IMG/VR virus record: IMGVR_UViG_2802429241_000003
DNA: 9,751 nt
Reading direction: 5' to 3' (one strand)
From: a virus
Taxonomy: Duplodnaviria > Heunggongvirae > Uroviricota > Caudoviricetes
Shown here: piece after piece, positions 1,487-9,206 of the stretch
Layout of the letters: each line of letters opens with the position of its first letter
How positions within the stretch are numbered: position 1 is the first letter of the stretch
The notes under the pieces: generated by a model
The model's database searches: none
What the model was told of the DNA's origin: nothing
The model's input: only the letters and a program-made list of their open reading frames with translations
Program-made: the position numbers and the translations under genes

Positions 1487-1998
1487 TGATGGCCCCCGTC
1501 ATTTCTGGTGCTTTTCACCGTGCGGCTTCTTAAAAACCTGCCATCACGAACAACAGACACTTCTCGTTTACCCAACCTCATTTCACGGCGGTAACATTCA
1601 GAAAATGCCTCGTCCGGCATCATATAAATGCGACGCTTCGCCTCCGTATCCAGAAGGGAACGGCTTGGGGTTACATATAAAAACGACTCATCAATAGAGA
1701 CAAAACCACGAGCAAGAATTGCTGGCAGAATGCCAGGAAGAACGCAGAAAACAGCTCCACGATGCAGCAACATCTGGTACTCCATGACCTCCGTTATCCC
1801 CGTGACTACTGTTACGGTGTCACGTCTGTTACGGCTGGCAACCAGTCGCTGCACACGTCCAATTTTCTGATCTACAGATAGATGTTTGCTATCGTTATCA
1901 ATATGATCGATAACAAATCCTTTAATCGTTTGATCAAGGTAGTGCACCACCTGCGATTGAATCTGGTGATTATCACCAAAGAAGGCCAGAATCATCAT
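1483..1998 (-). CDS. Hypothetical protein (171 aa), second gene of the leftward operon
   Basis: ORF whose ATG overlaps the stop of the Cro-like gene (ATGA at 1995-1998), with GGAGG 9 nt upstream; no confident family assignment. Confidence 0.5.
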   Translation of the reverse strand: MMILAFFGDNHQIQSQVVHYLDQTIKGFVIDHIDNDSKHLSVDQKIGRVQRLVASRNRRDTVTVVTGITEVMEYQMLLHRGAVFCVLPGILPAILARGFVSIDESFLYVTPSRSLLDTEAKRRIYMMPDEAFSECYRREMRLGKREVSVVRDGRFLRSRTVKSTRNDGGHQ

Positions 1999-2489
1999 TC
2001 CTCAAGCCTCCCAAGTGCTGAACGCCGGGCGTTGCTAATCTCCTTATGAATCAGCTCGATATCGCTGGAATCTTTATTCTTAAGCTCCAGCACGGTAATC
2101 GCATCACGAACCTCTGAAACGGTTACGTGTGAGTGTTTCCAGCGAGCAATGAATCGCGGACCGCGTAGATTGCAACGCTCCGCAGGCATCCCCAGCTCAG
2201 AGAAAACCGCTTTCAGCCTTGATAAGCAGTTAACAGGGAGATTCCCTTTGATCTTGTTCTGCCGAACCGATGTGCCATCGCTACGCTGGCGCTGACGTTC
2301 GGCAAAATCTGCCGCCCATTGCTGGACGTTAATCCGGCCTTCCGAATACGCCACCAGCAGCGTCAGGTTATCCGCACGAGGGAATCTCTCGAAGCGATAC
2401 CAGGCACCAATCAGTGATGACGTAAAGCCAAACTTTCTGGCAACACCAATTTGGCCTCCATTTTCGTCAACCCACTCCTGAAAGGTCAT
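1995..2489 (-). CDS. Cro-like HTH protein with a C-terminal extension of about 100 aa (first gene of the leftward early operon)
   Basis: 164-aa ORF divergent from the repressor gene. The N-terminus (GGQIGVARKFGFTSSLIGAWYRF...PRADNLTLL) resembles P22-type Cro/YdaS-like HTH proteins; GGAG sits 9 nt upstream of the ATG at 2489; the C-terminal domain is unassigned. Confidence 0.55.
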   Translation of the reverse strand: MTFQEWVDENGGQIGVARKFGFTSSLIGAWYRFERFPRADNLTLLVAYSEGRINVQQWAADFAERQRQRSDGTSVRQNKIKGNLPVNCLSRLKAVFSELGMPAERCNLRGPRFIARWKHSHVTVSEVRDAITVLELKNKDSSDIELIHKEISNARRSALGRLEE

Positions 2490-2508
2490 TTAACGAACTC
2501 CAGTTAAA

Positions 2509-2626
2509 ACCACGATATGTGGTATTAAAACCACATATCGTGAGTTTTTCAATGGGCGAAACAAAAAATAACCTTCTATTTGTGGTCCACCTCTCGTCTT
2601 ACCATGTGAAAACCACTAAATGTGGT
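2509..2626. promoter_or_regulatory. Immunity-region operators and divergent promoters: ACCAC-N5-GTGGT at 2509-2523, a degenerate copy at 2529-2543, and a third site at 2612-2626
   Basis: Perfect palindromes accacgatatgtggt and accactaaatgtggt plus half-degenerate accacatatcgtgag. On the minus strand a candidate promoter TTGAAA-17-TTTAAT overlaps the 2509-2543 sites; TATAAA at 2631-2636 lies upstream of the repressor start. Confidence 0.6.
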
Positions 2627-2663
2627 AATGTATAAATAACCCACCATTCACGATTGATGAGAC

Positions 2664-3320
2664 ATGAAAAGCAACGACGAGAACATCAAGAAAGAAATAG
2701 GTCTGCGCATTCAGACTCTACGGAAACAATCCGGCATGACTGCCGGAGATCTCCAGCAAGTCACTGGAATAGGCTTAAGCACCTTGCAGAACTATGAGGC
2801 CGGATTAAGACAACCATCTATACCTGCCATCAAGAAAATCGCGCACGCCCTGAAAGCATCAGCGCCTTATATCGCGTGCTTAACAGATAACCCGTTCCCA
2901 CCCCAGAATACTAACGCTCCTGTTATTCCTGGGCTTGTAGCTATAAAAAATGACATAGCATCGCACGCCGGAGAAAAGCCAGTGCTGGCGATAGAACAGG
3001 AGATTCTACGAAGCAAGAACATCAACCCATCGTCTCTGTCAGTTCTCCAGAGCAACGATGAGTTAATGTCACCAACAATATCCCCAGGCTCCCAAGTCCT
3101 GATTAATACAGACGATACAGAGATTCATGAGGGGATCTATGCCCTTGAAGACAGAAATGGCCTGGTTGTTTTGAGGCACTGTAGAGTCATACCGGGTGAC
3201 AATGCTGTTATGCTGTCAACCGAAAGGGATGCTGAAATGAACACTAAGCATCTGAATAACGAGGAATTTAAGCGTTATAAAGTTCTTGGCCGCGTAGTTA
3301 GTGTTGTCAACTGGTTATGA
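2664..3320 (+). CDS. CI-like phage repressor: N-terminal HTH_XRE domain plus C-terminal LexA/S24-peptidase-like domain
   Basis: 218-aa ORF. HTH segment LRKQSGMTAGDLQQVTGIGLSTLQNYEAG; C-terminal segment with M-S-P-T-I-S-P-G-S-QVLIN spacing typical of the S24 fold. Divergent from the cro-like gene across palindromic operators. Confidence 0.8.
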   Translation: MKSNDENIKKEIGLRIQTLRKQSGMTAGDLQQVTGIGLSTLQNYEAGLRQPSIPAIKKIAHALKASAPYIACLTDNPFPPQNTNAPVIPGLVAIKNDIASHAGEKPVLAIEQEILRSKNINPSSLSVLQSNDELMSPTISPGSQVLINTDDTEIHEGIYALEDRNGLVVLRHCRVIPGDNAVMLSTERDAEMNTKHLNNEEFKRYKVLGRVVSVVNWL

Positions 3321-3326
3321 TACACA

Positions 3327-3344
3327 GCACGGCGAAAGCCGTGC
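3327..3344 (+). other. GC-rich hairpin with GAAA tetraloop just after the repressor stop (possible partial terminator or RNA stabiliser)
   Basis: gcacggc-gaaa-gccgtgc, 7-bp stem, followed by a weak U-tract (atttct). Confidence 0.35.
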
Positions 3345-3362
3345 ATTTCTACGCTCAAAAAA

Positions 3363-3377
3363 ACCACATTTTGTGGT
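3363..3377. promoter_or_regulatory. Fourth operator copy (accacattttgtggt) between the repressor gene and the downstream 124-aa gene
   Basis: Perfect ACCAC-N5-GTGGT palindrome; TTGACA at 3382-3387 lies adjacent. Confidence 0.5.
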
Positions 3378-3412
3378 TTTGACAACATGTAAAAGTATAA
3401 AAGAGGCTACGC

Positions 3413-3787
3413 ATGGAATTACATACAGCCAATAAAAACGAAACTCTGATCACTGCTGGAATCGAAATCCAAGCGTTGAACATAGCGATTGAGTGTATGT
3501 TATGCCAAATCATTGATAATGAGAAAGATATCGACTGGATAGAATCTATCCTTCATCTGGCATCAGAACAAAAAGTCTGCCTCAAAACGGCCTTACAATA
3601 CGATGTGCCAGCGGTATCGAAGCTGTGCCAGCCATTGATGGCATATAACAGGGCTATTATTTCTGTATGCCTCATGATTCTCGATGAAAACACCCCTCTT
3701 AGCGACCGCTCAGAAGCTGCTCTAACCCTCTCACGTAAACAGCGACAGCTAGCAAATCAACTGATATCAACGATAGCTGACCTCTGA
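3413..3787 (+). CDS. Hypothetical protein (124 aa) downstream of the repressor
   Basis: ORF with AAGAGG SD 6-7 nt upstream of the ATG and a hairpin terminator after the stop; no recognisable motif. Confidence 0.5.
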   Translation: MELHTANKNETLITAGIEIQALNIAIECMLCQIIDNEKDIDWIESILHLASEQKVCLKTALQYDVPAVSKLCQPLMAYNRAIISVCLMILDENTPLSDRSEAALTLSRKQRQLANQLISTIADL

Positions 3788-3792
3788 CTGCA

Positions 3793-3822
3793 AGCGGGCT
3801 AACGCCCGCTTATATGATTATA
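3793..3822 (+). terminator. Candidate intrinsic terminator after the 124-aa gene
   Basis: Hairpin agcgggc-taac-gcccgct (7-bp stem) followed by an interrupted U-rich tract (ttatatgattat). Confidence 0.45.
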
Positions 3823-3915
3823 GATTTATATAATTATATAAAACACTTTTCATCCGCCAAAAAGTTGGTTATGCTTACCTCATTCTATAAATATAGATTT
3901 ATAGAATTATATAAT
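3811..3915. repeat. Centromere/operator-like AT-rich repeats upstream of parA (two copies of the TTATAGATTTATATAA unit)
   Basis: 3818-3833 ttatagatttatataa; 3892-3915 variant atatagatttatagaattatataa. Same unit recurs at 4607-4622 and, inverted, at 55-70. Confidence 0.5.
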
Positions 3916-3937
3916 CAAACATATGGAGTCTCGACAA

Positions 3938-4591
3938 ATGACTATATCTGTAGGTATTTTCAACGGAAAAGGCGGCGTAACCAAATCAACCATTGCTCGT
4001 GCTTTAGCAGTTGCTTATGCAAAGGCTGGCTGGAATGTATGCCTGATCGATATGGATGTGCTTAACGGAACGGTAACGCGTTGGGTACAACGCAGAATGG
4101 CCAACAATATCGAACCAGCAATCGCGGCGCAGCCGTGCGGCACACCATCACAAGTCCAGAAAATCATCGAATCAGAAGTATACGACCTGGTTATCGTCGA
4201 TGGCGGTGCCTACGCATCTGAATCAGTACCGAAGCTCTCTGAATTTCTGGATATGGTTATTTTGCCAACCAGATTCTCTACCGATGACCTGGAAACCACC
4301 GTTAACACAGCTCACGGCATCGTTAAAAAGGGTGTACCAATCAAGAAAATTTGCATGGTGTTTTCCGGCGCGGCTGAAAACGAAGCTGACTATATTGAAG
4401 CCCAAGAGTACCTGGCTAATACGCCATACTTTGTTGTCGATAAGTACATTCCCCACAAGCCAGCTCTGAGCAAAGCTCAGGATAAGGGCTTAAGCCTCAT
4501 TGAGTGCTCATACGTTGCGCCACGCAAAAAGGCAGACGACGTTATTCAGGGGATTATCAACCAGCTTGAGGCTCTGACTACTGCCGCGTAA
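3938..4591 (+). CDS. parA: ParA/ParF-type partition ATPase (deviant Walker A), type Ib partition system
   Basis: GIFNGKGGVTKST Walker A-like box, LIDMD A'-box, DLVIVDGG Walker B. GGAG sits 9 nt upstream of the ATG at 3938; the track's upstream ATG at 3923 has no SD. Confidence 0.85.
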   Translation: MTISVGIFNGKGGVTKSTIARALAVAYAKAGWNVCLIDMDVLNGTVTRWVQRRMANNIEPAIAAQPCGTPSQVQKIIESEVYDLVIVDGGAYASESVPKLSEFLDMVILPTRFSTDDLETTVNTAHGIVKKGVPIKKICMVFSGAAENEADYIEAQEYLANTPYFVVDKYIPHKPALSKAQDKGLSLIECSYVAPRKKADDVIQGIINQLEALTTAA

Positions 4592-5104: not shown

Positions 5105-5128
5105 TAAAAAAGGCCCCCGAAGGGGCCT
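5105..5128 (-). terminator. Intrinsic terminator for the minus-strand small ORF
   Basis: On the minus strand: hairpin ggcccc-ttcg-ggggcc (7 bp with the flanking A-T pair) followed by TTTTTT (5105-5110); on the plus strand the hairpin lacks a downstream U-tract. Confidence 0.6.
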
Positions 5129-5133
5129 AATCG

Positions 5134-5256
5134 CTACTTGCTGCTAATGTTTATCGTCACATTCAGAGCGTTATCAGTAATCTTCCAACCCTCCCCATGT
5201 GGCGTAAACAAAGCTCCAGTAACAACGATAAAAATACACATACAGTATTTTTTCAT
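5134..5256 (-). CDS. 40-aa small hydrophobic protein, candidate type I toxin (MKKYCMCIFIVVTGALFTPHGEGWKITDNALNVTINISSK)
   Basis: Internal ATG of the 60-aa track ORF with AAGGG SD about 8 nt upstream; hydrophobic N-terminal stretch; strong terminator immediately after the stop; candidate -10 TATAAT (minus strand, 5411-5416) about 150 nt upstream. Confidence 0.35.
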   Translation of the reverse strand: MKKYCMCIFIVVTGALFTPHGEGWKITDNALNVTINISSK

Positions 5257-5320
5257 TGTATGGCCCTTACAGGCCGTTTCACGGCATCCCCACCGACGAA
5301 AATGACGCGAGAGCAAGCAC

Positions 5321-5340
5321 GCTGTTTGTGCCTGCGTGGT
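5321..5340. repeat. Copy A of a 20-bp direct repeat (gctgtttgtgcctgcgtggt); lies in the predicted 5' leader of the small-ORF mRNA, where it is read as its complement
   Basis: 19 of 20 identity with 5570-5589; flanking sequence shows a diverged duplication of about 80 bp (ctgaaag and gcgaatc shared). Confidence 0.6.
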
Positions 5341-5569
5341 ACGGCAAGTGGATAATCCTTTCCTGAAAGTCGGTGCCCGGTTGCGAATCGGCGAAAAGGC
5401 CCCAAGCCATATTATACGTCATCCCCTTCATAATGAAGGAATAAAAAACGCTTTTATTACATAGAATTACACGTAAATAAGTTAAAAACCTTCATTTTGC
5501 ATGAGCTAATGAGCTAAATTTTTTATATGAATAGTGGACTATTCACCTAAATTGGGTAAGAATGTAGTT

Positions 5570-5676: not shown

Positions 5677-6222
5677 CTACCACCGCCCTATTGATTCAAG
5701 TATTAATGAAGGTGAATCATTTGAATTATTCGATTTTGCACCGTTATCGACCCAATCTCTGTATGCTTCATCACAACAGTACCTTACAGCAGTTGGAATA
5801 ACAGGGATGCCGCCCCCAAATGAGAACCCCATTGAGCTTATGCTAATTCTGTCGGATGGCCTATTTCTCAATGCTTCAAATCCCTTGCTGTTGAAGTAAC
5901 TCAGCATCAGAGGCAAAAGGTTATCCTCGTCCTGACTGATTGTTCCAGGGAAAAAGTAGTAACCATAGCGATTAAATTCGGGGATCAGTTTTTCTACCAA
6001 CAACATGAAATTCATTGGGCTAATATTAAGGGCTGTGCAAGCACCAAAAAGGGCATCAACTGTTAATACAGACTGCCCGTTCTCTATCTTTGTCCATGCG
6101 TTTGGTGTTTTTCCGGCAGCTTGAGCCAGCACTCCTTGATGCACACCTCTTTCTAGCCTAAGCTCTTTTATGATCATTAGGTGGATTGTTGAAAAACATG
6201 AGTTTTTTGACGGATCAGACAT
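5677..6222 (-). CDS. HTH_XRE-domain protein with a C-terminal domain of unknown function (181 aa)
   Basis: ATG at 6222 with GGAG 7 nt upstream; N-terminal IIKELRLERGVHQGVLAQAAGKTPNAWTKIENGQS is a Cro/C1-type HTH; stop lies inside an 11-bp inverted repeat (5655-5665 and 5683-5693). Confidence 0.6.
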   Translation of the reverse strand: MSDPSKNSCFSTIHLMIIKELRLERGVHQGVLAQAAGKTPNAWTKIENGQSVLTVDALFGACTALNISPMNFMLLVEKLIPEFNRYGYYFFPGTISQDEDNLLPLMLSYFNSKGFEALRNRPSDRISISSMGFSFGGGIPVIPTAVRYCCDEAYRDWVDNGAKSNNSNDSPSLILESIGRW

Positions 6223-6406
6223 TTTTTAGCTCCATATAAAACTCTATCTTTGTTCTCAATTTTAACAAACTGCCCATCTTGGGAATGTGTTGTTCCTTGT
6301 GAGAACTATACATTCCCATTTCTGGTATATCAAGAAAATTAAAAGCTCGGCATTCAAACCCACGCTATGTGGTTGTCTCTGTTAAAATCCCGCCGTATTG
6401 ACATGA

Positions 6407-6505
6407 ATGCGCCATTGGTGGACACTTTCCGAGCCGTAGCAAAATCTACGGTCGGGATTGGCGTCCCGATTGCACAATGGCGCATACCGCGTTAGCGGTT
6501 TTTTT
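6407..6505 (+). ncRNA. Structured element: 11-bp long-range stem enclosing two adjacent 6-bp hairpins, followed at once by an intrinsic terminator; candidate leader/attenuator or small RNA
   Basis: Outer stem 6407-6417 aatgcgccattg pairs with 6475-6485 caatggcgcat; hairpins ccgtag-caaaat-ctacgg and tcggga-ttggcg-tcccga; terminator accgc-gtta-gcggt plus T7 (6486-6505). TTGACA at 6397-6402 lies just upstream. Confidence 0.3.
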
Positions 6506-6607
6506 ATGCGTAAAGCACTGCTACACCCAAATTATGGTGGGGCGTGCGGGGGCGGAGAAATCCGCGCCGGGTTTGTCATTGTGCCGGTTACGCCAACCCT
6601 GTACGTC

Positions 6608-6641
6608 TCACCACCATATTGATTGGCGTCATTGGTGGTGA
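6608..6641. promoter_or_regulatory. Inverted repeat TCACCACCA-N16-TGGTGGTGA in the promoter region of the antirepressor-like operon
   Basis: 9-bp perfect arms at 6608-6616 and 6633-6641; a third ATTGGTGG half-site at 6414-6421; lies 27-60 bp upstream of the ATG at 6668. Confidence 0.4.
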
Positions 6642-6667: not shown

Positions 6668-6859
6668 ATGACAAACCTACCCCATGACTATTACGTCAAC
6701 CTCGTAAAGATCCTTCTCAAGAAAGCCTCATACGCCGATAAATTCCGCCTGGCTGAAATCATAGAGCGCGAAGCTATGCGCATCGCCAGCAACGATAACG
6801 CTGTTTCTGACGCAAAAATCTCCCTCGTAACCAAAGTAGTTATGGGAGGTGCAAAATGA
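6668..6859 (+). CDS. Hypothetical small protein (63 aa), translationally coupled to the downstream antirepressor-like gene
   Basis: ATG at 6668 with GGAGA SD 8 nt upstream; stop TGA overlaps the ATG of the next gene (ATGA at 6856-6859). Confidence 0.45.
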   Translation: MTNLPHDYYVNLVKILLKKASYADKFRLAEIIEREAMRIASNDNAVSDAKISLVTKVVMGGAK

Positions 6860-8124
6860 AAACGCTTCCGACCGTTAACACCCTACAGCCTATCCTGCAT
6901 AACCAAATCCCTGTCATTACTACCGAGTTACTGGCACAGCTTTACGGCGTATCTCCTGTACGCATTCGACAAAATCATCATGAGAATAAGGAACGCTTCA
7001 TTGAAGGTAAGCACTACTTCAAAATTGAAGGTAACGAACTTCGAGAGTTAAAGCACAAAGTGACTCAAGATAATGATGTGAAGAACAAAAACTCTTTAAG
7101 AGATTCAGTTAATGACGCCCCCTCTAAAAGAGAGAGCGTCGAGCACAGAGTAGTTTTAAACTACTCTGTTAACCACAAGGTAACTAAAAGTCACTCTGTG
7201 AAAATCGCCCGTAACGTTCGCTCCCTCATTCTCTGGACAGAACGCGGGGCTGCACGTCACGCTAAAATGCTCGAAACTAACCAAGCGTGGGATGTGTTCG
7301 AACGGCTGGAAGACTGCTACTTCAACCAGAACGCGCAAACGGCCGCGACCGTTACCGTCTCGCCAAACAATGCTCGTGAGGTTGTCGATACGCTCAACGC
7401 CAAACCGATGTTTTACATTAAGGTGTGCAACAACGAGCCACTCACAACCTCAGCCGATGTTGCCCAGGCATTCAGCACCACAAACAATTCCATCGTTATG
7501 GCCATCGATGCGCTACGCATTCCTCGCACGGCTGCGGCACGTCATTTCTTTAAAGAGCAACGACCGCTGGAAGGAAGCGACCGCGAAATAACAATCTATC
7601 GCATGACAAAAGACGGATTTACCTTGCTCATGGAAAGTATCGACGGTCCAGGCGTGAAGGATATCAAGCTGGCCTACATTGAAGCCTTTAACGCTATCAG
7701 CAGCGTGTTAAAAACACAGTACGAGCGCGATCTGGCTAAACGACTGTACCAGGAAAAAACGATTATCCGCGCGGCAACAGAGCATAATCGGCTATTAACG
7801 GAACCGAACTACAGGAAGGAACTAATCAAGGAGTTTGACAAGGCAACAGGGAAAACCAAAGCGACGCTAAATCTGCCAGCAATGACTCAGGAAAATGTGA
7901 TATCAGCCTTACTTCTTGATCTGCTCAGAAACGCCAGAGCACTTATCAGCTTTGACGAAAACCTGAATCCTCAGCTCAAGCTACTACCACCGACAGGCAA
8001 AGTAGTCGACCAAGCTGATCACAACAGCATACTCAGCGTTCTGGATGCAAACCTGCCAGCCAGGACACTACAGGATCTGATAAAAACATGTGCTGATAAG
8101 CTGGCACAGAAAAGCAGACCATAA
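6856..8124 (+). CDS. Antirepressor-like phage regulatory protein: N-terminal ORF6N-like domain, central Rha-like domain, unassigned C-terminal region
   Basis: 422 aa. N-terminal ITTELLAQLYGVSPVRIRQNHHENKERF...ILWTERGAARHAKMLETNQAWDVFERLEDCYF resembles ORF6N; central RMTKDGFTLLMESIDGPGVKDIKLAYIEAFNAI resembles the Rha family (TRDGF..L.M.F.G.....K..YI.AFN). Strong GGGAGG SD 6 nt upstream. Confidence 0.75.
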   Translation: MKTLPTVNTLQPILHNQIPVITTELLAQLYGVSPVRIRQNHHENKERFIEGKHYFKIEGNELRELKHKVTQDNDVKNKNSLRDSVNDAPSKRESVEHRVVLNYSVNHKVTKSHSVKIARNVRSLILWTERGAARHAKMLETNQAWDVFERLEDCYFNQNAQTAATVTVSPNNAREVVDTLNAKPMFYIKVCNNEPLTTSADVAQAFSTTNNSIVMAIDALRIPRTAAARHFFKEQRPLEGSDREITIYRMTKDGFTLLMESIDGPGVKDIKLAYIEAFNAISSVLKTQYERDLAKRLYQEKTIIRAATEHNRLLTEPNYRKELIKEFDKATGKTKATLNLPAMTQENVISALLLDLLRNARALISFDENLNPQLKLLPPTGKVVDQADHNSILSVLDANLPARTLQDLIKTCADKLAQKSRP

Positions 8125-8933: not shown

Positions 8934-9206
8934 TCATTTGATCCCTTGTTCCAATTCTGACGACACTTTAACCTTTTCCCATACAAGGGTTTGCAGCCTT
9001 AACAGAATCGCGTCTTTATCAAGGTGTGAAAGATCCTTCACCATATCGTCAAACGACAGAACGCGAATGGCCATCTCAATGACCCTCGGCGGCTCCCCCT
9101 TCTCATATCGCTTATATGTAGCCAACGATATCCCAAATTCTTCGGCGGCTCGCTCCTGCGTCCAGTTCATCCCACGACGCCATAATTTCAATTCATAACC
9201 CGTCAT
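8934..9206 (-). CDS. XRE-type HTH DNA-binding protein (90 aa), antitoxin-like or autoregulator-like
   Basis: ATG at 9206 preceded by GAGGAGGG SD; LKLWRRGMNWTQERAAEEFGISLATYKRYEKGEPPRVIEMAIRVL fits an XRE HTH; the track's longer version starts at a TTG inside the palindrome. Confidence 0.6.
   Translation of the reverse strand: MTGYELKLWRRGMNWTQERAAEEFGISLATYKRYEKGEPPRVIEMAIRVLSFDDMVKDLSHLDKDAILLRLQTLVWEKVKVSSELEQGIK

What the first reader, a model, noticed from the sequence alone, without database searches (positions are those of the whole stretch)
2490..3390. Immunity region with four ACCAC-N5-GTGGT operators, including tandem sites 20 bp apart and one downstream of the repressor gene
Sites at 2509-2523 and 2529-2543 are spaced about two helical turns centre to centre and overlap a candidate leftward promoter (TTGAAA-17-TTTAAT), like OR1/OR2. 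The site at 2612-2626 abuts the repressor promoter. The site at 3363-3377 lies in front of the 124-aa gene, suggesting the repressor also controls that gene and perhaps the par operon.
Basis: partly seen in the sequence, partly recalled or inferred. Interest (0 to 1): 0.45.

Follow-up and report, generated by a model that had tools for sequence, protein, structure and literature searches.

The report
Repressor operator set of a phage-plasmid
The palindromes are real, conserved binding sites, most likely for the lysogeny repressor of a roughly 48-kb phage that lives as a plasmid in E. coli and its relatives, and they also mark an antirepressor operon and the plasmid replication gene; this is a well-known design, seen here in an unstudied family.

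Summary
Three sites are exact ACCAC-N5-GTGGT (2509-2523, 2612-2626, 3363-3377; 0.01 expected by chance). The fourth is degenerate (ACCAC-N5-GTGAG) and lies at 2530-2544, not 2529-2543. It starts 21 bp after the first, not 20.

All four sites keep their positions in syntenic loci whose repressors are only 60-66% identical. The half-sites do not change while the central five bases vary. The repressor's helix-turn-helix is also invariant.

It sits in front of a P1-type C4-RNA/antirepressor operon. A sixth conserved site lies outside the window, upstream of an IncFII-type repA.

Sites 1 and 2 bracket the -10 of the best leftward promoter. Site 3 overlaps a conserved extended -10 in front of the repressor gene. 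Site 4 sits in the 68 bp between the repressor terminator and the 124-aa gene.

Control of the par operon is not supported. A conserved terminator follows the 124-aa gene, and par has its own repeat-flanked upstream region.

The design mirrors N15/phiKO2 CB and P1 C1. I rate it a new member of a known kind. Binding is inferred, not shown.

The parts
2509..2523 (.). Operator O1, ACCACGATATGTGGT (exact)
   Evidence: Exact match. The position and half-sites are conserved in 7 divergent loci, sometimes as CCCAC. It covers the predicted start region of the leftward promoter.
2530..2544 (.). Operator O2, ACCACATATCGTGAG (degenerate right half; GTGGG in the relatives)
   Evidence: Two mismatches. It always starts 21 bp after O1. 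It fills the 17-bp spacer of the leftward promoter.
2524..2552 (-). Candidate early (lytic) leftward promoter: -35 TTGAAA at 2552-2547, -10 TTTAAT at 2529-2524
   Evidence: Best-scoring sigma-70-like match on this strand. The TTG of the -35 and the A/T-rich -10 are conserved in the relatives. A consensus match only; no transcript data.
2571..2587 (.). Conserved element ACCTTCTATTTGTGGTC holding an extra GTGGT half-site (2582-2586)
   Evidence: Invariant CCT.CT.TT.GTGGT columns in alignment A2. The repeat finder aligns it to site 4 (D3). Role unknown.
2612..2626 (.). Operator O3, ACCACTAAATGTGGT (exact)
2623..2631 (+). Candidate repressor-gene promoter: extended -10 TGgTAATGT overlapping the right half of O3
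   Evidence: TGGTAA.GT is invariant in 7 loci, including bases outside the operator. Inferred.
2664..3320 (+). CI-like repressor gene, 218 aa
   Evidence: HTH_3 E 4.5e-11; Peptidase_S24 18.4 bits, below the 23.3 cut-off. phrog_4 'transcriptional repressor' E 9.6e-27. The model matches the lambda-186 hybrid repressor, LexA, 186 CI and lambda CI. Most HTH columns in residues 12-49 are invariant in 10 orthologues.
1995..2489 (-). First gene of the leftward operon, 164 aa (Cro position)
   Evidence: No Pfam or NCBIfam family. phrog_35 'transcriptional repressor' E 0.0023 over residues 1-53. The N-terminus is conserved, even in loci whose repressor is about 30% identical.
3327..3344 (+). Hairpin after the repressor gene (terminator-like)
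   Evidence: -15 kcal/mol, z -4.7. The stem is invariant and the loop variable in the relatives, where a T-run follows. The T-run is weaker in the window.
3363..3377 (.). Operator O4, ACCACATTTTGTGGT; with its flanks a 21-bp palindrome, AAAACCAC-N5-GTGGTTTT
   Evidence: The central five bases vary even among near-identical plasmids, but the half-sites never do.
3413..3787 (+). 124-aa gene downstream of O4; predicted four-helix bundle of unknown function
   Evidence: pLDDT 91.7. Only generic helical-bundle matches. The family was found only in this lineage, and a homologue sits in the same place in loci whose repressor is about 30% identical.
3792..3811 (+). Hairpin after the 124-aa gene, separating it from par
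   Evidence: -14.9 kcal/mol, z -4.1. Conserved in the relatives, where TTTATAT follows.
6359..6373 (.). Fifth operator-like site (Oant), CCCACGCTATGTGGT, in front of the C4/antirepressor operon
   Evidence: One mismatch. The CCCAC variant also occurs at O1 in relatives. Conserved in close relatives with a variable centre. An equivalent site lies at the same 60-nt distance from the isrK/C4 module in C. amalonaticus locus L010. Absent in L011.
6380..6388 (+). Candidate repressor-controlled promoter: extended -10 TGtTAAAAT just downstream of Oant
   Evidence: L010 has TGgTAGATT in the equivalent place. Inferred.
6420..6618 (+). P1-type immI RNA module: a1/b1 targets, isrK-like element and C4 antisense RNA
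   Evidence: C4 72.3 bits (gathering score 45), isrK 67.3 bits (50), c4-a1b1 41.7 bits (below 46.7). The same module is in the relatives.
6668..8124 (+). Small ORF plus ORF6N/Rha-type antirepressor gene (6856-8124)
   Evidence: ORF6N E 9.1e-20, Phage_pRha E 4.3e-12. Annotated 'phage antirepressor' in AP019710.

Best explanation
The window comes from a roughly 48-kb circular phage-plasmid: a myovirus with an IncFII-type RepA, ParA and toxin-antitoxin genes. Its 218-aa CI-like protein most likely binds as a dimer to a 15-21-bp dyad, AAA(A/C)CCAC-RWWWY-GTGG(T/G)TTT. The half-site centres are 10 bp apart.

In the cI/early-operon intergenic region, O1 and O2 are 21 bp (two helical turns) apart. They bracket the -10, and O2 fills the spacer, of the leftward early promoter. 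Cooperative binding there would shut off the early operon. O3 overlaps an extended -10 in front of the repressor gene, which would give negative autoregulation.

O4 occupies the middle of the only 68 bp available for a promoter of the 124-aa gene. It therefore most likely represses that gene, and it may also anchor a loop of about 750 bp to O1-O3.

The same repressor appears to hold down a promoter of a P1-like C4-RNA/antirepressor operon (Oant). Outside the window it appears to control the promoter/leader of repA. That would tie lysogeny, induction and plasmid replication to one protein.

The repressor seems to lack the catalytic serine of self-cleaving repressors, so induction is probably by the antirepressor.

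Shown here: the sites, their statistics, their conservation and positions, the domain architecture and the RNA module. Inferred: who binds, the promoters, and the direction of regulation.
For: - Statistics: three exact sites against 0.01 expected. In the full 49.5-kb relative pEA32_4, AACCAC-N5-GTGGT occurs at four loci against 0.02 expected. All four are non-coding regulatory positions.
- Phylogenetic footprint: in seven loci with repressors 60-66% identical, the CCAC/GTGG core of the half-sites is invariant, the outermost base is (A/C) or (T/G), the central five bases vary, and the spacing holds at 21 / 81-83 / 751-759 bp. Among near-identical plasmids, the differences seen within the sites all fall in the central bases.
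- A whole-plasmid scan of a divergent Salmonella Weltevreden plasmid finds only O1-O4, the repA site and one coding-sequence match.
- The gene flanked by the sites encodes an HTH_3 domain plus a LexA/CI-like fold. Its HTH is invariant while the rest diverges.
- Loci whose repressor is about 30% identical keep the recognition helix STLQNYEAG and AC(C/T)AC half-sites in the same architecture.
- Promoter geometry is given.
- The repA site is perfect in five loci with different central bases.
- Oant lies the same 60 nt upstream of the isrK/C4 module in two lineages.
- Precedent: N15/phiKO2 CB binds three OR sites and two OL sites at repA, lacks the Ser/Lys residues and lowers copy number (PMC4997575). 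P1 C1 has 22 dispersed operators (PMC8546580).
Against: - No binding or transcript data exist.
- Because the HTH is invariant in all close relatives, there is no covariation test of the protein-site pairing. A conserved 90-aa HTH protein (8934-9206, minus strand) also has an invariant HTH.
- O2 is weak in this window, with two mismatches.
- No acceptable sigma-70 promoter was found around O4, and the repressor-gene promoter is ambiguous, with two candidates.
- The S24 match is below Pfam's cut-off. The model is of moderate quality, pLDDT 74. Loss of the catalytic serine rests on a motif alignment only; hhalign and a PDB sequence search gave nothing.
- In the 30%-identity relatives the second half-site is often degenerate, and the sites downstream of the repressor gene are 19 bp apart. 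The binding mode may therefore not be a simple symmetric dimer.
- Oant is absent in some relatives (L011, L014).
Confidence: 0.75

Rival explanations
1. The sites are operators, but their main or only ligand is another element-encoded DNA-binding protein: the 164-aa product of the first leftward gene (Cro position) or the conserved 90-aa XRE-type HTH protein at 8934-9206. The CI-like protein would then recognise something else.
For: The 90-aa protein's HTH (FGISLATYKRYEKG) is invariant in five loci, so conservation alone cannot exclude it. The N-terminus of the 164-aa protein is highly conserved, even in distant relatives. In phiKO2 and PY54, Cro and the prophage repressor have different specificities.
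Against: No site with one mismatch or fewer lies near the 90-aa gene's own operon, in the window or in pEA32_4. The CI-like gene, by contrast, is flanked by sites on both sides. The 164-aa protein has no recognisable DNA-binding family. The 181-aa XRE protein (5677-6222) is absent from relatives that keep all the sites, so it is excluded. A shared CI/Cro operator set would not contradict the main explanation.
Confidence: 0.1
2. O4, and perhaps the repA site, is chiefly a distal anchor for DNA looping. Repressor oligomers would bridge O4 and O1-O3, about 750 bp apart and enclosing the repressor gene, to sharpen repression or autoregulation. This is what lambda OL-OR and the 186 flanking sites do. 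O4 would then not be the operator of a local promoter.
For: O4 is the most symmetric site, a 21-bp palindrome with its flanks. No credible sigma-70 promoter could be placed around it. The repressor model resembles lambda CI and 186 CI, which oligomerise through their C-terminal domains. The O3-O4 distance stays within 751-759 bp.
Against: The 124-aa gene is bracketed by two hairpins, so it needs a promoter inside the 68 bp that hold O4. The 30%-identity relatives have two tandem sites there, the arrangement seen at the leftward promoter. The O3-O4 distance varies by 8 bp, so helical phase is not kept. The two roles are not exclusive.
Confidence: 0.2
3. The tandem pair is really one long palindrome (CACGATATGTGGT-ATTAAA-ACCACATATCGTG, 2511-2542). 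It would act as a hairpin or cruciform, for example as a terminator, an RNA element or a replication or recombination site, rather than as two protein sites.
For: The terminator scan picks it up on both strands with 13-14 pairs. The central bases of O1 and O2 are reverse complements in this lineage.
Against: The long palindrome is lineage-specific. In six divergent loci the central bases are not complementary although both sites are kept. One near-identical relative, L022, already breaks it. A leftward transcript from the predicted promoter would start inside O1 and could not contain the whole hairpin.
Confidence: 0.03

Closest known systems
Primary immunity (immB) of the linear phage-plasmids N15 and phiKO2: prophage repressor CB with OR1-3 and OL1-2
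   Same: A phage that lives as a plasmid. A CI-type prophage repressor is transcribed divergently from the lytic genes, with three operators between them. [quoted passage not shown] CB lacks the RecA cleavage site and the Ser/Lys residues (PMC4997575). Induction is by an antirepressor operon governed by a small processed RNA (references listed).
   Different: No detectable sequence relationship: tblastn of the repressor against 50,697 phage records at E 1e-5 returns no Escherichia phage, so no N15. The operator differs, ACCAC-N5-GTGGT against a 16-bp T-A-N10-T-A motif. The replicon is circular with an IncFII_repA-family initiator rather than linear with a protelomerase. The virion is a myovirus rather than a siphovirus. 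The repA site is single and about 10 kb from the repressor gene. There is an extra site in front of a four-helix-bundle gene.
Bacteriophage P1/P7 tripartite immunity: C1 repressor with dispersed operators, and the immI operon c4-icd-ant
   Same: A circular plasmid prophage of a myovirus. One repressor acts at operators scattered round the genome (22 in P1; PMC8546580). The window holds a C4 antisense RNA with upstream targets, a small ORF and an antirepressor, with a primary-repressor-type site in front. From my own knowledge, not checked here, P1 has a C1 operator (Op51) at the immI promoter and one (Op53) at the lytic replicon.
   Different: The repressor is a lambda/LexA-type two-domain HTH protein, not a P1 C1 homologue. 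The operators are dyad-symmetric 15-mers, not the asymmetric 17-mer ATTGCTCTAATAAATTT. The antirepressor is of ORF6N/Rha type. No coi or lxc homologues were recognised.
Lambda CI with OR1-OR3 and OL1-OL3
   Same: An HTH N-terminal domain plus a LexA-like C-terminal domain. Tandem operators overlap a lytic promoter. There is a site at the repressor's own promoter. A distal operator beyond the repressor gene allows for a loop.
   Different: The catalytic serine is apparently absent. The tandem spacing is 21 bp. O3 is 82 bp from O2 rather than adjacent to it. The distal site is single and precedes a gene in the same orientation as the repressor gene. The first gene of the lytic operon is a 164-aa protein with no detectable Cro family.

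Membership tests
Lambda/LexA-type two-domain repressors (HTH_XRE + S24-like domain) | N-terminal Cro/C1-type helix-turn-helix domain | tested here: met
   Pfam HTH_3 E 4.5e-11, 43 bits against a cut-off of 23, residues 16-69. PDB sequence and fold matches to SinR, ImmR, C.BclI and P22 c2.
Lambda/LexA-type two-domain repressors (HTH_XRE + S24-like domain) | C-terminal LexA/S24-like beta domain | tested here: met
   The sequence evidence is weak: Peptidase_S24 18.4 bits against a cut-off of 23.3, and phrog_6201 'CI-like repressor' E 2.9e-9. The AF2 model (pLDDT 74) matches the lambda-186 hybrid repressor, T. maritima LexA, 186 CI, lambda CI, and the M. tuberculosis LexA C-domain at TM 0.70 and rmsd 2.6 over 95 columns.
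Lambda/LexA-type two-domain repressors (HTH_XRE + S24-like domain) | Ser-Lys catalytic dyad and Ala-Gly cleavage site (RecA-stimulated self-cleavage) | tested here: not met
   Aligning the family's G-D-S-M-x7-G motif by eye gives N-D-E-L-MSPTISP-G here, so Glu (or Leu) replaces the serine. D132, L134 and M135 are invariant in 10 orthologues. Distant relatives have S or D at that position. The A-G at residues 102-103 is S-G in several orthologues. This is motif-level evidence only; hhalign against LexA and a PDB profile search were uninformative.
Lambda/LexA-type two-domain repressors (HTH_XRE + S24-like domain) | Several dyad-symmetric operators overlapping divergent promoters between the repressor gene and the lytic operon | tested here: met
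   O1, O2 and O3 plus a half-site lie in the 174-bp intergenic region and overlap the best promoter candidates. Binding itself was not tested.
N15/phiKO2-type phage-plasmid immunity (CB repressor) | [quoted passage not shown] | tested here: met
   A perfect ACCAC-N5-GTGGT lies upstream of repA in pEA32_4 (17781-17795) and in four divergent loci, with different central bases. It lies outside the window, in 97%-identical and in divergent relatives. Binding was not tested.
N15/phiKO2-type phage-plasmid immunity (CB repressor) | Homology to CB and the 16-bp T-A-N10-T-A operator | tested here: not met
   tblastn against the phage collection returns no Escherichia phage, so no N15, and the single Klebsiella record has a different listed host. 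The operator motif is different (against PMC4997575).
N15/phiKO2-type phage-plasmid immunity (CB repressor) | Linear plasmid prophage with protelomerase and an N15-type RepA | tested here: not met
   The related records are circular, no protelomerase is annotated, and the initiator is of the IncFII_repA family.
P1/P7 immI operon (c4-icd-ant) | C4 antisense RNA | tested here: met
   Rfam RF01695, 72.3 bits against a gathering score of 45, at 6530-6618. Also present in relatives L010-L012.
P1/P7 immI operon (c4-icd-ant) | Upstream a1/b1 target elements | tested here: inconclusive
   RF03163, 41.7 bits, below the gathering score of 46.7, at 6420-6472. It overlaps an isrK match of 67.3 bits, above its score of 50.
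P1/P7 immI operon (c4-icd-ant) | Small ORF and antirepressor gene downstream, and an operator of the primary repressor at the operon promoter | tested here: inconclusive
   The gene order fits: a 63/78-aa ORF followed by an ORF6N+Rha protein. An operator-like site lies next to an extended -10. Homology to P1 Icd/Ant was not tested, and repression is not testable with these tools.
P1 C1 repressor family | C1-type protein and the asymmetric 17-bp operator ATTGCTCTAATAAATTT | tested here: not met
   The repressor is an HTH_3/LexA-like protein and its sites are symmetric 15-mers.

The most novel reading that the evidence does not exclude
In this widespread but unstudied family of phage-plasmids from E. 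coli, E. albertii, Salmonella, Citrobacter and Klebsiella, one non-cleavable CI-type repressor runs a six-site regulon. The regulon would join four modules of different ancestry: a lambda-like switch, a P1-type C4-RNA/antirepressor operon, an IncFII-type repA (with the repressor taking the promoter-repressing role that CopB plays in classical IncFII plasmids), and a conserved four-helix-bundle partner gene of unknown function. That partner stays next to the repressor gene even in loci whose repressor is about 30% identical, and it may be a new modulator of the switch. O4 may in addition loop to O1-O3.
Probability: 0.4. Interest if true: 0.5.

Novelty: new member of a known kind. Interest (0 to 1): 0.35.

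Why it matters
Phage-plasmids must reconcile two lifestyles, and how they wire the lysis-lysogeny switch to plasmid replication is known in detail only for N15/phiKO2 and P1. This family has at least 70 sequenced plasmids, among them one in the reference strain E. coli ATCC 25922, and three isolated Yersinia phages. If the predictions hold, it offers a third, independently assembled solution with a simple and very clean operator code.

The practical gains are modest. The work yields a defined operator motif for annotation. It predicts that loss of the repressor raises copy number and releases the antirepressor. It also points to a conserved gene of unknown function (124 aa) as a candidate switch component. 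The principle itself is not new.

Tried and rejected
- A scan of one genome per species for repressor relatives found nothing. Relatives came instead from the protein search and the contig look-ups and from IMG/VR.
- Two one-mismatch sites 21 bp apart, at the start of a ParB/Srx gene in pEA32_4 (45292 and 45313), looked like another tandem operator. They are coding sequence and decay to 2-3 mismatches in the divergent Salmonella plasmid, so I rejected them.
- An exact match inside a tail gene (22370) lacks the A/T flanks and is coding, so I treat it as chance.
- The 181-aa XRE protein is excluded as the binder because it is absent from relatives that keep the sites.
- Residue-level comparison of the C-terminal domain with LexA and lambda CI failed by BLASTP, pairwise alignment, hhalign and a PDB profile search.
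- The 124-aa protein has no Pfam, NCBIfam or informative PHROG family, and only generic helical-bundle fold matches.
- No significant LexA box was found in the window.
- Rfam found no CopA-like RNA in the repA leader.
- Consensus and weight-matrix promoter scans gave no credible promoter at O4.
- The literature searches found no study of this family's regulation. One relevant paper (PMC5800970) is not held.
Full report
**What the window is.** Megablast places all 9,751 bases at 96-98% identity in about 60 circular, non-mobilizable plasmids of 46-52 kb. They come from E. coli, E. albertii and Salmonella, and include the 48,488-bp plasmid of ATCC 25922. The window also matches three Yersinia phages, vB_YpM_39, 41 and 44. 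The full record of one relative, pEA32_4 (97.8% identical), carries contractile-tail, capsid and terminase genes. It also carries lysis genes, a RepA initiator, ParA and a RelE/ParE toxin module. The element is therefore a phage-plasmid.

Around the finding the genes are as follows.
- A leftward operon starts with a 164-aa protein (1995-2489) and continues through a Ref nuclease and a DUF1064 protein.
- A rightward 218-aa protein (2664-3320) has an HTH_3 domain and a weak S24-like C-terminus.
- A 124-aa gene follows at 3413-3787.
- After that come parA and an 85-aa gene.

**Checking the observation.** Exact ACCAC-N5-GTGGT occurs three times (2509-2523, 2612-2626, 3363-3377) against 0.01 expected. 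The fourth site is ACCACATATCGTGAG at 2530-2544. It has two mismatches and lies one base to the right of the stated coordinates. It starts 21 bp after the first site, not 20.

The scan that allowed mismatches also found CCCACGCTATGTGGT at 6359-6373. In this lineage sites 1 and 2 together form an inverted repeat with 13-14-bp arms. That long palindrome is not kept in relatives, and one near-identical relative already breaks it. The units are therefore the individual 15-mers.

**Conservation.** The repressor has homologues at 60-66% identity in Citrobacter freundii, C. amalonaticus, Klebsiella aerogenes, Yokenella and Salmonella. All of them sit in syntenic loci.

In alignments of the two intergenic regions the CCAC/GTGG core is invariant. 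The outermost base is A or C on the left and T or G on the right, and the central five bases vary. Start-to-start spacings are 21 bp (O1-O2), 81-83 bp (O2-O3) and 751-759 bp (O3-O4). Among near-identical plasmids, the differences seen within the sites all fall in the central bases.

The pooled logo is AAA(A/C)CCAC-RWWWY-GTGG(T/G)TTT. An extra GTGGT half-site within a conserved CCT.CT.TT.GTGGT block (2572-2586) is also invariant.

In pEA32_4 the motif with one flanking A occurs at only four loci against 0.02 expected. These are O1, O3, O4 and a site just upstream of repA.

The repA site is perfect, with different central bases, in four further loci: C. amalonaticus (L010), C. freundii (L011-L013) and S. 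Weltevreden (L014). It follows a conserved extended -10 (TGnTAGAGT) and abuts a TA(T/A)GA(T/A) hexamer. RepA belongs to the IncFII_repA family.

A whole-plasmid scan of the divergent Salmonella plasmid finds only O1-O4, the repA site and one coding-sequence match.

The fifth window site, Oant, lies 60 nt upstream of an Rfam-detected module:
- isrK, 67.3 bits;
- C4 antisense RNA, 72.3 bits;
- a1/b1 targets, 41.7 bits, which is below threshold.

A small ORF and an ORF6N/Rha antirepressor follow the module. L010 and L025 have an equivalent site (ACCACAATGCGTGAT). In L010 it lies at the same 60-nt distance from the module, whereas L011 lacks it.

**Who binds.** The gene flanked by the sites encodes an HTH_3 domain (E 4.5e-11). 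Its AF2 model (pLDDT 74) matches the lambda-186 hybrid repressor, LexA, 186 CI and lambda CI. Most HTH columns in residues 12-49 are invariant in ten orthologues, and the recognition helix GLSTLQNYEAG is identical in all of them. The C-terminal half diverges.

IMG/VR loci whose repressor is only about 30% identical keep four things:
- the helix STLQNYEAG;
- the divergent gene starting (V/M)TFQEWV;
- the hairpin after the repressor gene;
- a homologue of the 124-aa gene.

Their sites have AC(C/T)AC half-sites at the corresponding places, although the second half is often degenerate.

This is co-conservation, not covariation, so it supports the pairing without proving it. The 181-aa XRE protein is excluded because it is absent from relatives that keep the sites. 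The conserved 90-aa HTH protein cannot be excluded by conservation, but no site lies near its own operon.

**How it probably works.**
- **Leftward promoter.** The best leftward promoter is TTGAAA (2552-2547), a 17-bp spacer, then TTTAAT (2529-2524). O2 is the spacer, the -10 is the 6-bp gap between O1 and O2, and O1 covers the predicted start. The TTG and the -10 are conserved. Two dimers on the same face, 21 bp apart, would occlude this promoter.
- **Repressor gene.** O3's right half is embedded in a conserved extended -10, TGgTAATGT (2623-2631). This suggests negative autoregulation. An alternative rightward promoter, TTTTCA-17-TAACCT (2546-2574), would put O2 near -44, an activating position, but its -10 is poorly conserved.
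- **O4.** It lies between a stable hairpin after the repressor gene (3327-3344, -15 kcal/mol) and the 124-aa gene. A second hairpin follows that gene (3792-3811, -14.9 kcal/mol). Any promoter for the gene must therefore overlap O4, but none fits the sigma-70 consensus. A role in looping is a live alternative.
- **par operon.** Downstream of the second hairpin, parA is preceded by its own region with 8-bp TATA-type repeats on both sides. Control of par from O4 is unlikely.
- **Oant.** It sits just upstream of an extended -10, TGtTAAAAT (6380-6388). A second, operator-free TTGACA-17-GACACT promoter (6398-6426) is conserved. This would allow C4 RNA to be made constitutively while read-through into the antirepressor gene stays repressor-limited.
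- **Induction.** The G-D-S-M motif of self-cleaving repressors reads N-D-E-L here. No LexA box is significant in the window. Induction through the antirepressor is therefore the likelier route. This step is inference.

**Comparison with known systems.** The closest functional analogue is the CB repressor of N15/phiKO2. It has three OR operators and two OL operators at repA, lacks the Ser/Lys residues and controls copy number (PMC4997575). The second analogue is P1, with its dispersed C1 operators and the c4-icd-ant operon (PMC8546580; Rfam).

Membership fails for both. The repressor has no detectable homology to N15 CB. The operator motif is different. The replicon is circular and of IncFII type, and the protein is not a P1 C1. 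At the level of architecture it belongs with the lambda/LexA-type two-domain repressors, apparently as a non-cleavable variant.

I found no publication on the regulation of this family.

**Verdict.** The feature is real and strongly non-random, and the reading as an immunity region is right in outline. It is a new member of a known kind. Interest is moderate to low, and everything about binding and direction of regulation still needs experiment.

Noticed in passing
window 6420-6618 (+), with 6668-8124: A P1/P7-type immI module: a1/b1 targets (41.7 bits, below threshold), an isrK-like element (67.3 bits) and C4 antisense RNA (72.3 bits). A small ORF and an ORF6N+Rha antirepressor follow. This also explains the roughly 80% match of 6450-6630 to many Stx phages.
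   Followed up: partly
window 5106-5404 (-): A strong Rfam match to ryfA RNA (136.3 bits against a gathering score of 80, full length) in the gap between the par genes and the 181-aa XRE gene. From memory, ryfA-type loci encode a small toxin of a type I toxin-antitoxin pair, so this may be an addiction module. I did not examine it.
   Followed up: no
L009 (pEA32_4, NZ_CP117604) 17781-17795; also L010 16949-16963, L011 19375-19389, L012 17788-17802, L013 17790-17804, L014 27462-27476: A perfect ACCAC-N5-GTGGT site upstream of the IncFII-type repA, conserved in divergent relatives with different central bases. A conserved hairpin just downstream reads as an intrinsic terminator on the opposite strand, which hints at an antisense RNA. 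Rfam found no CopA match there. The repA start annotated in pEA32_4 (17744) lies upstream of this hairpin and may be too long, since the relatives call a 277-aa protein.
   Followed up: partly
window 3810-3841 and 3875-3922: Two clusters of 8-bp-periodic TATA-type repeats (TTATAGAT / TTATATAA) flank a promoter-like stretch in front of parA and are conserved in relatives. They are likely the centromere or operator of the ParA/85-aa partition system.
   Followed up: partly
window 3413-3787 (+): The 124-aa protein is confidently predicted as a four-helix bundle (pLDDT 91.7) with no informative match. It sits immediately after the repressor gene, terminator and operator even in loci whose repressor is only about 30% identical (L026-L029). 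This suggests it is an integral, unknown part of the immunity module.
   Followed up: partly
window 2511-2542: In this lineage O1 and O2 form a near-perfect 34-bp palindrome, because their central bases (GATAT and ATATC) are reverse complements. This is not so in divergent relatives, and L022 breaks it. It may be chance or a local inverted duplication.
   Followed up: yes
window 6305-6333 (-): A strong sigma-70-like promoter, TTGATA-17-TATAGT (the best score in the region), points leftward to the 181-aa XRE gene (5677-6222). That gene is a lineage-specific insert, absent from most relatives, and its target is unknown.
   Followed up: no
window 3923 / 3938: The mechanical ORF list starts parA at 3923 (222 aa). 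Public annotations start it at 3938 (217 aa), and the conserved ...GGAGCTTCGACAAATG in relatives favours the later start.
   Followed up: no
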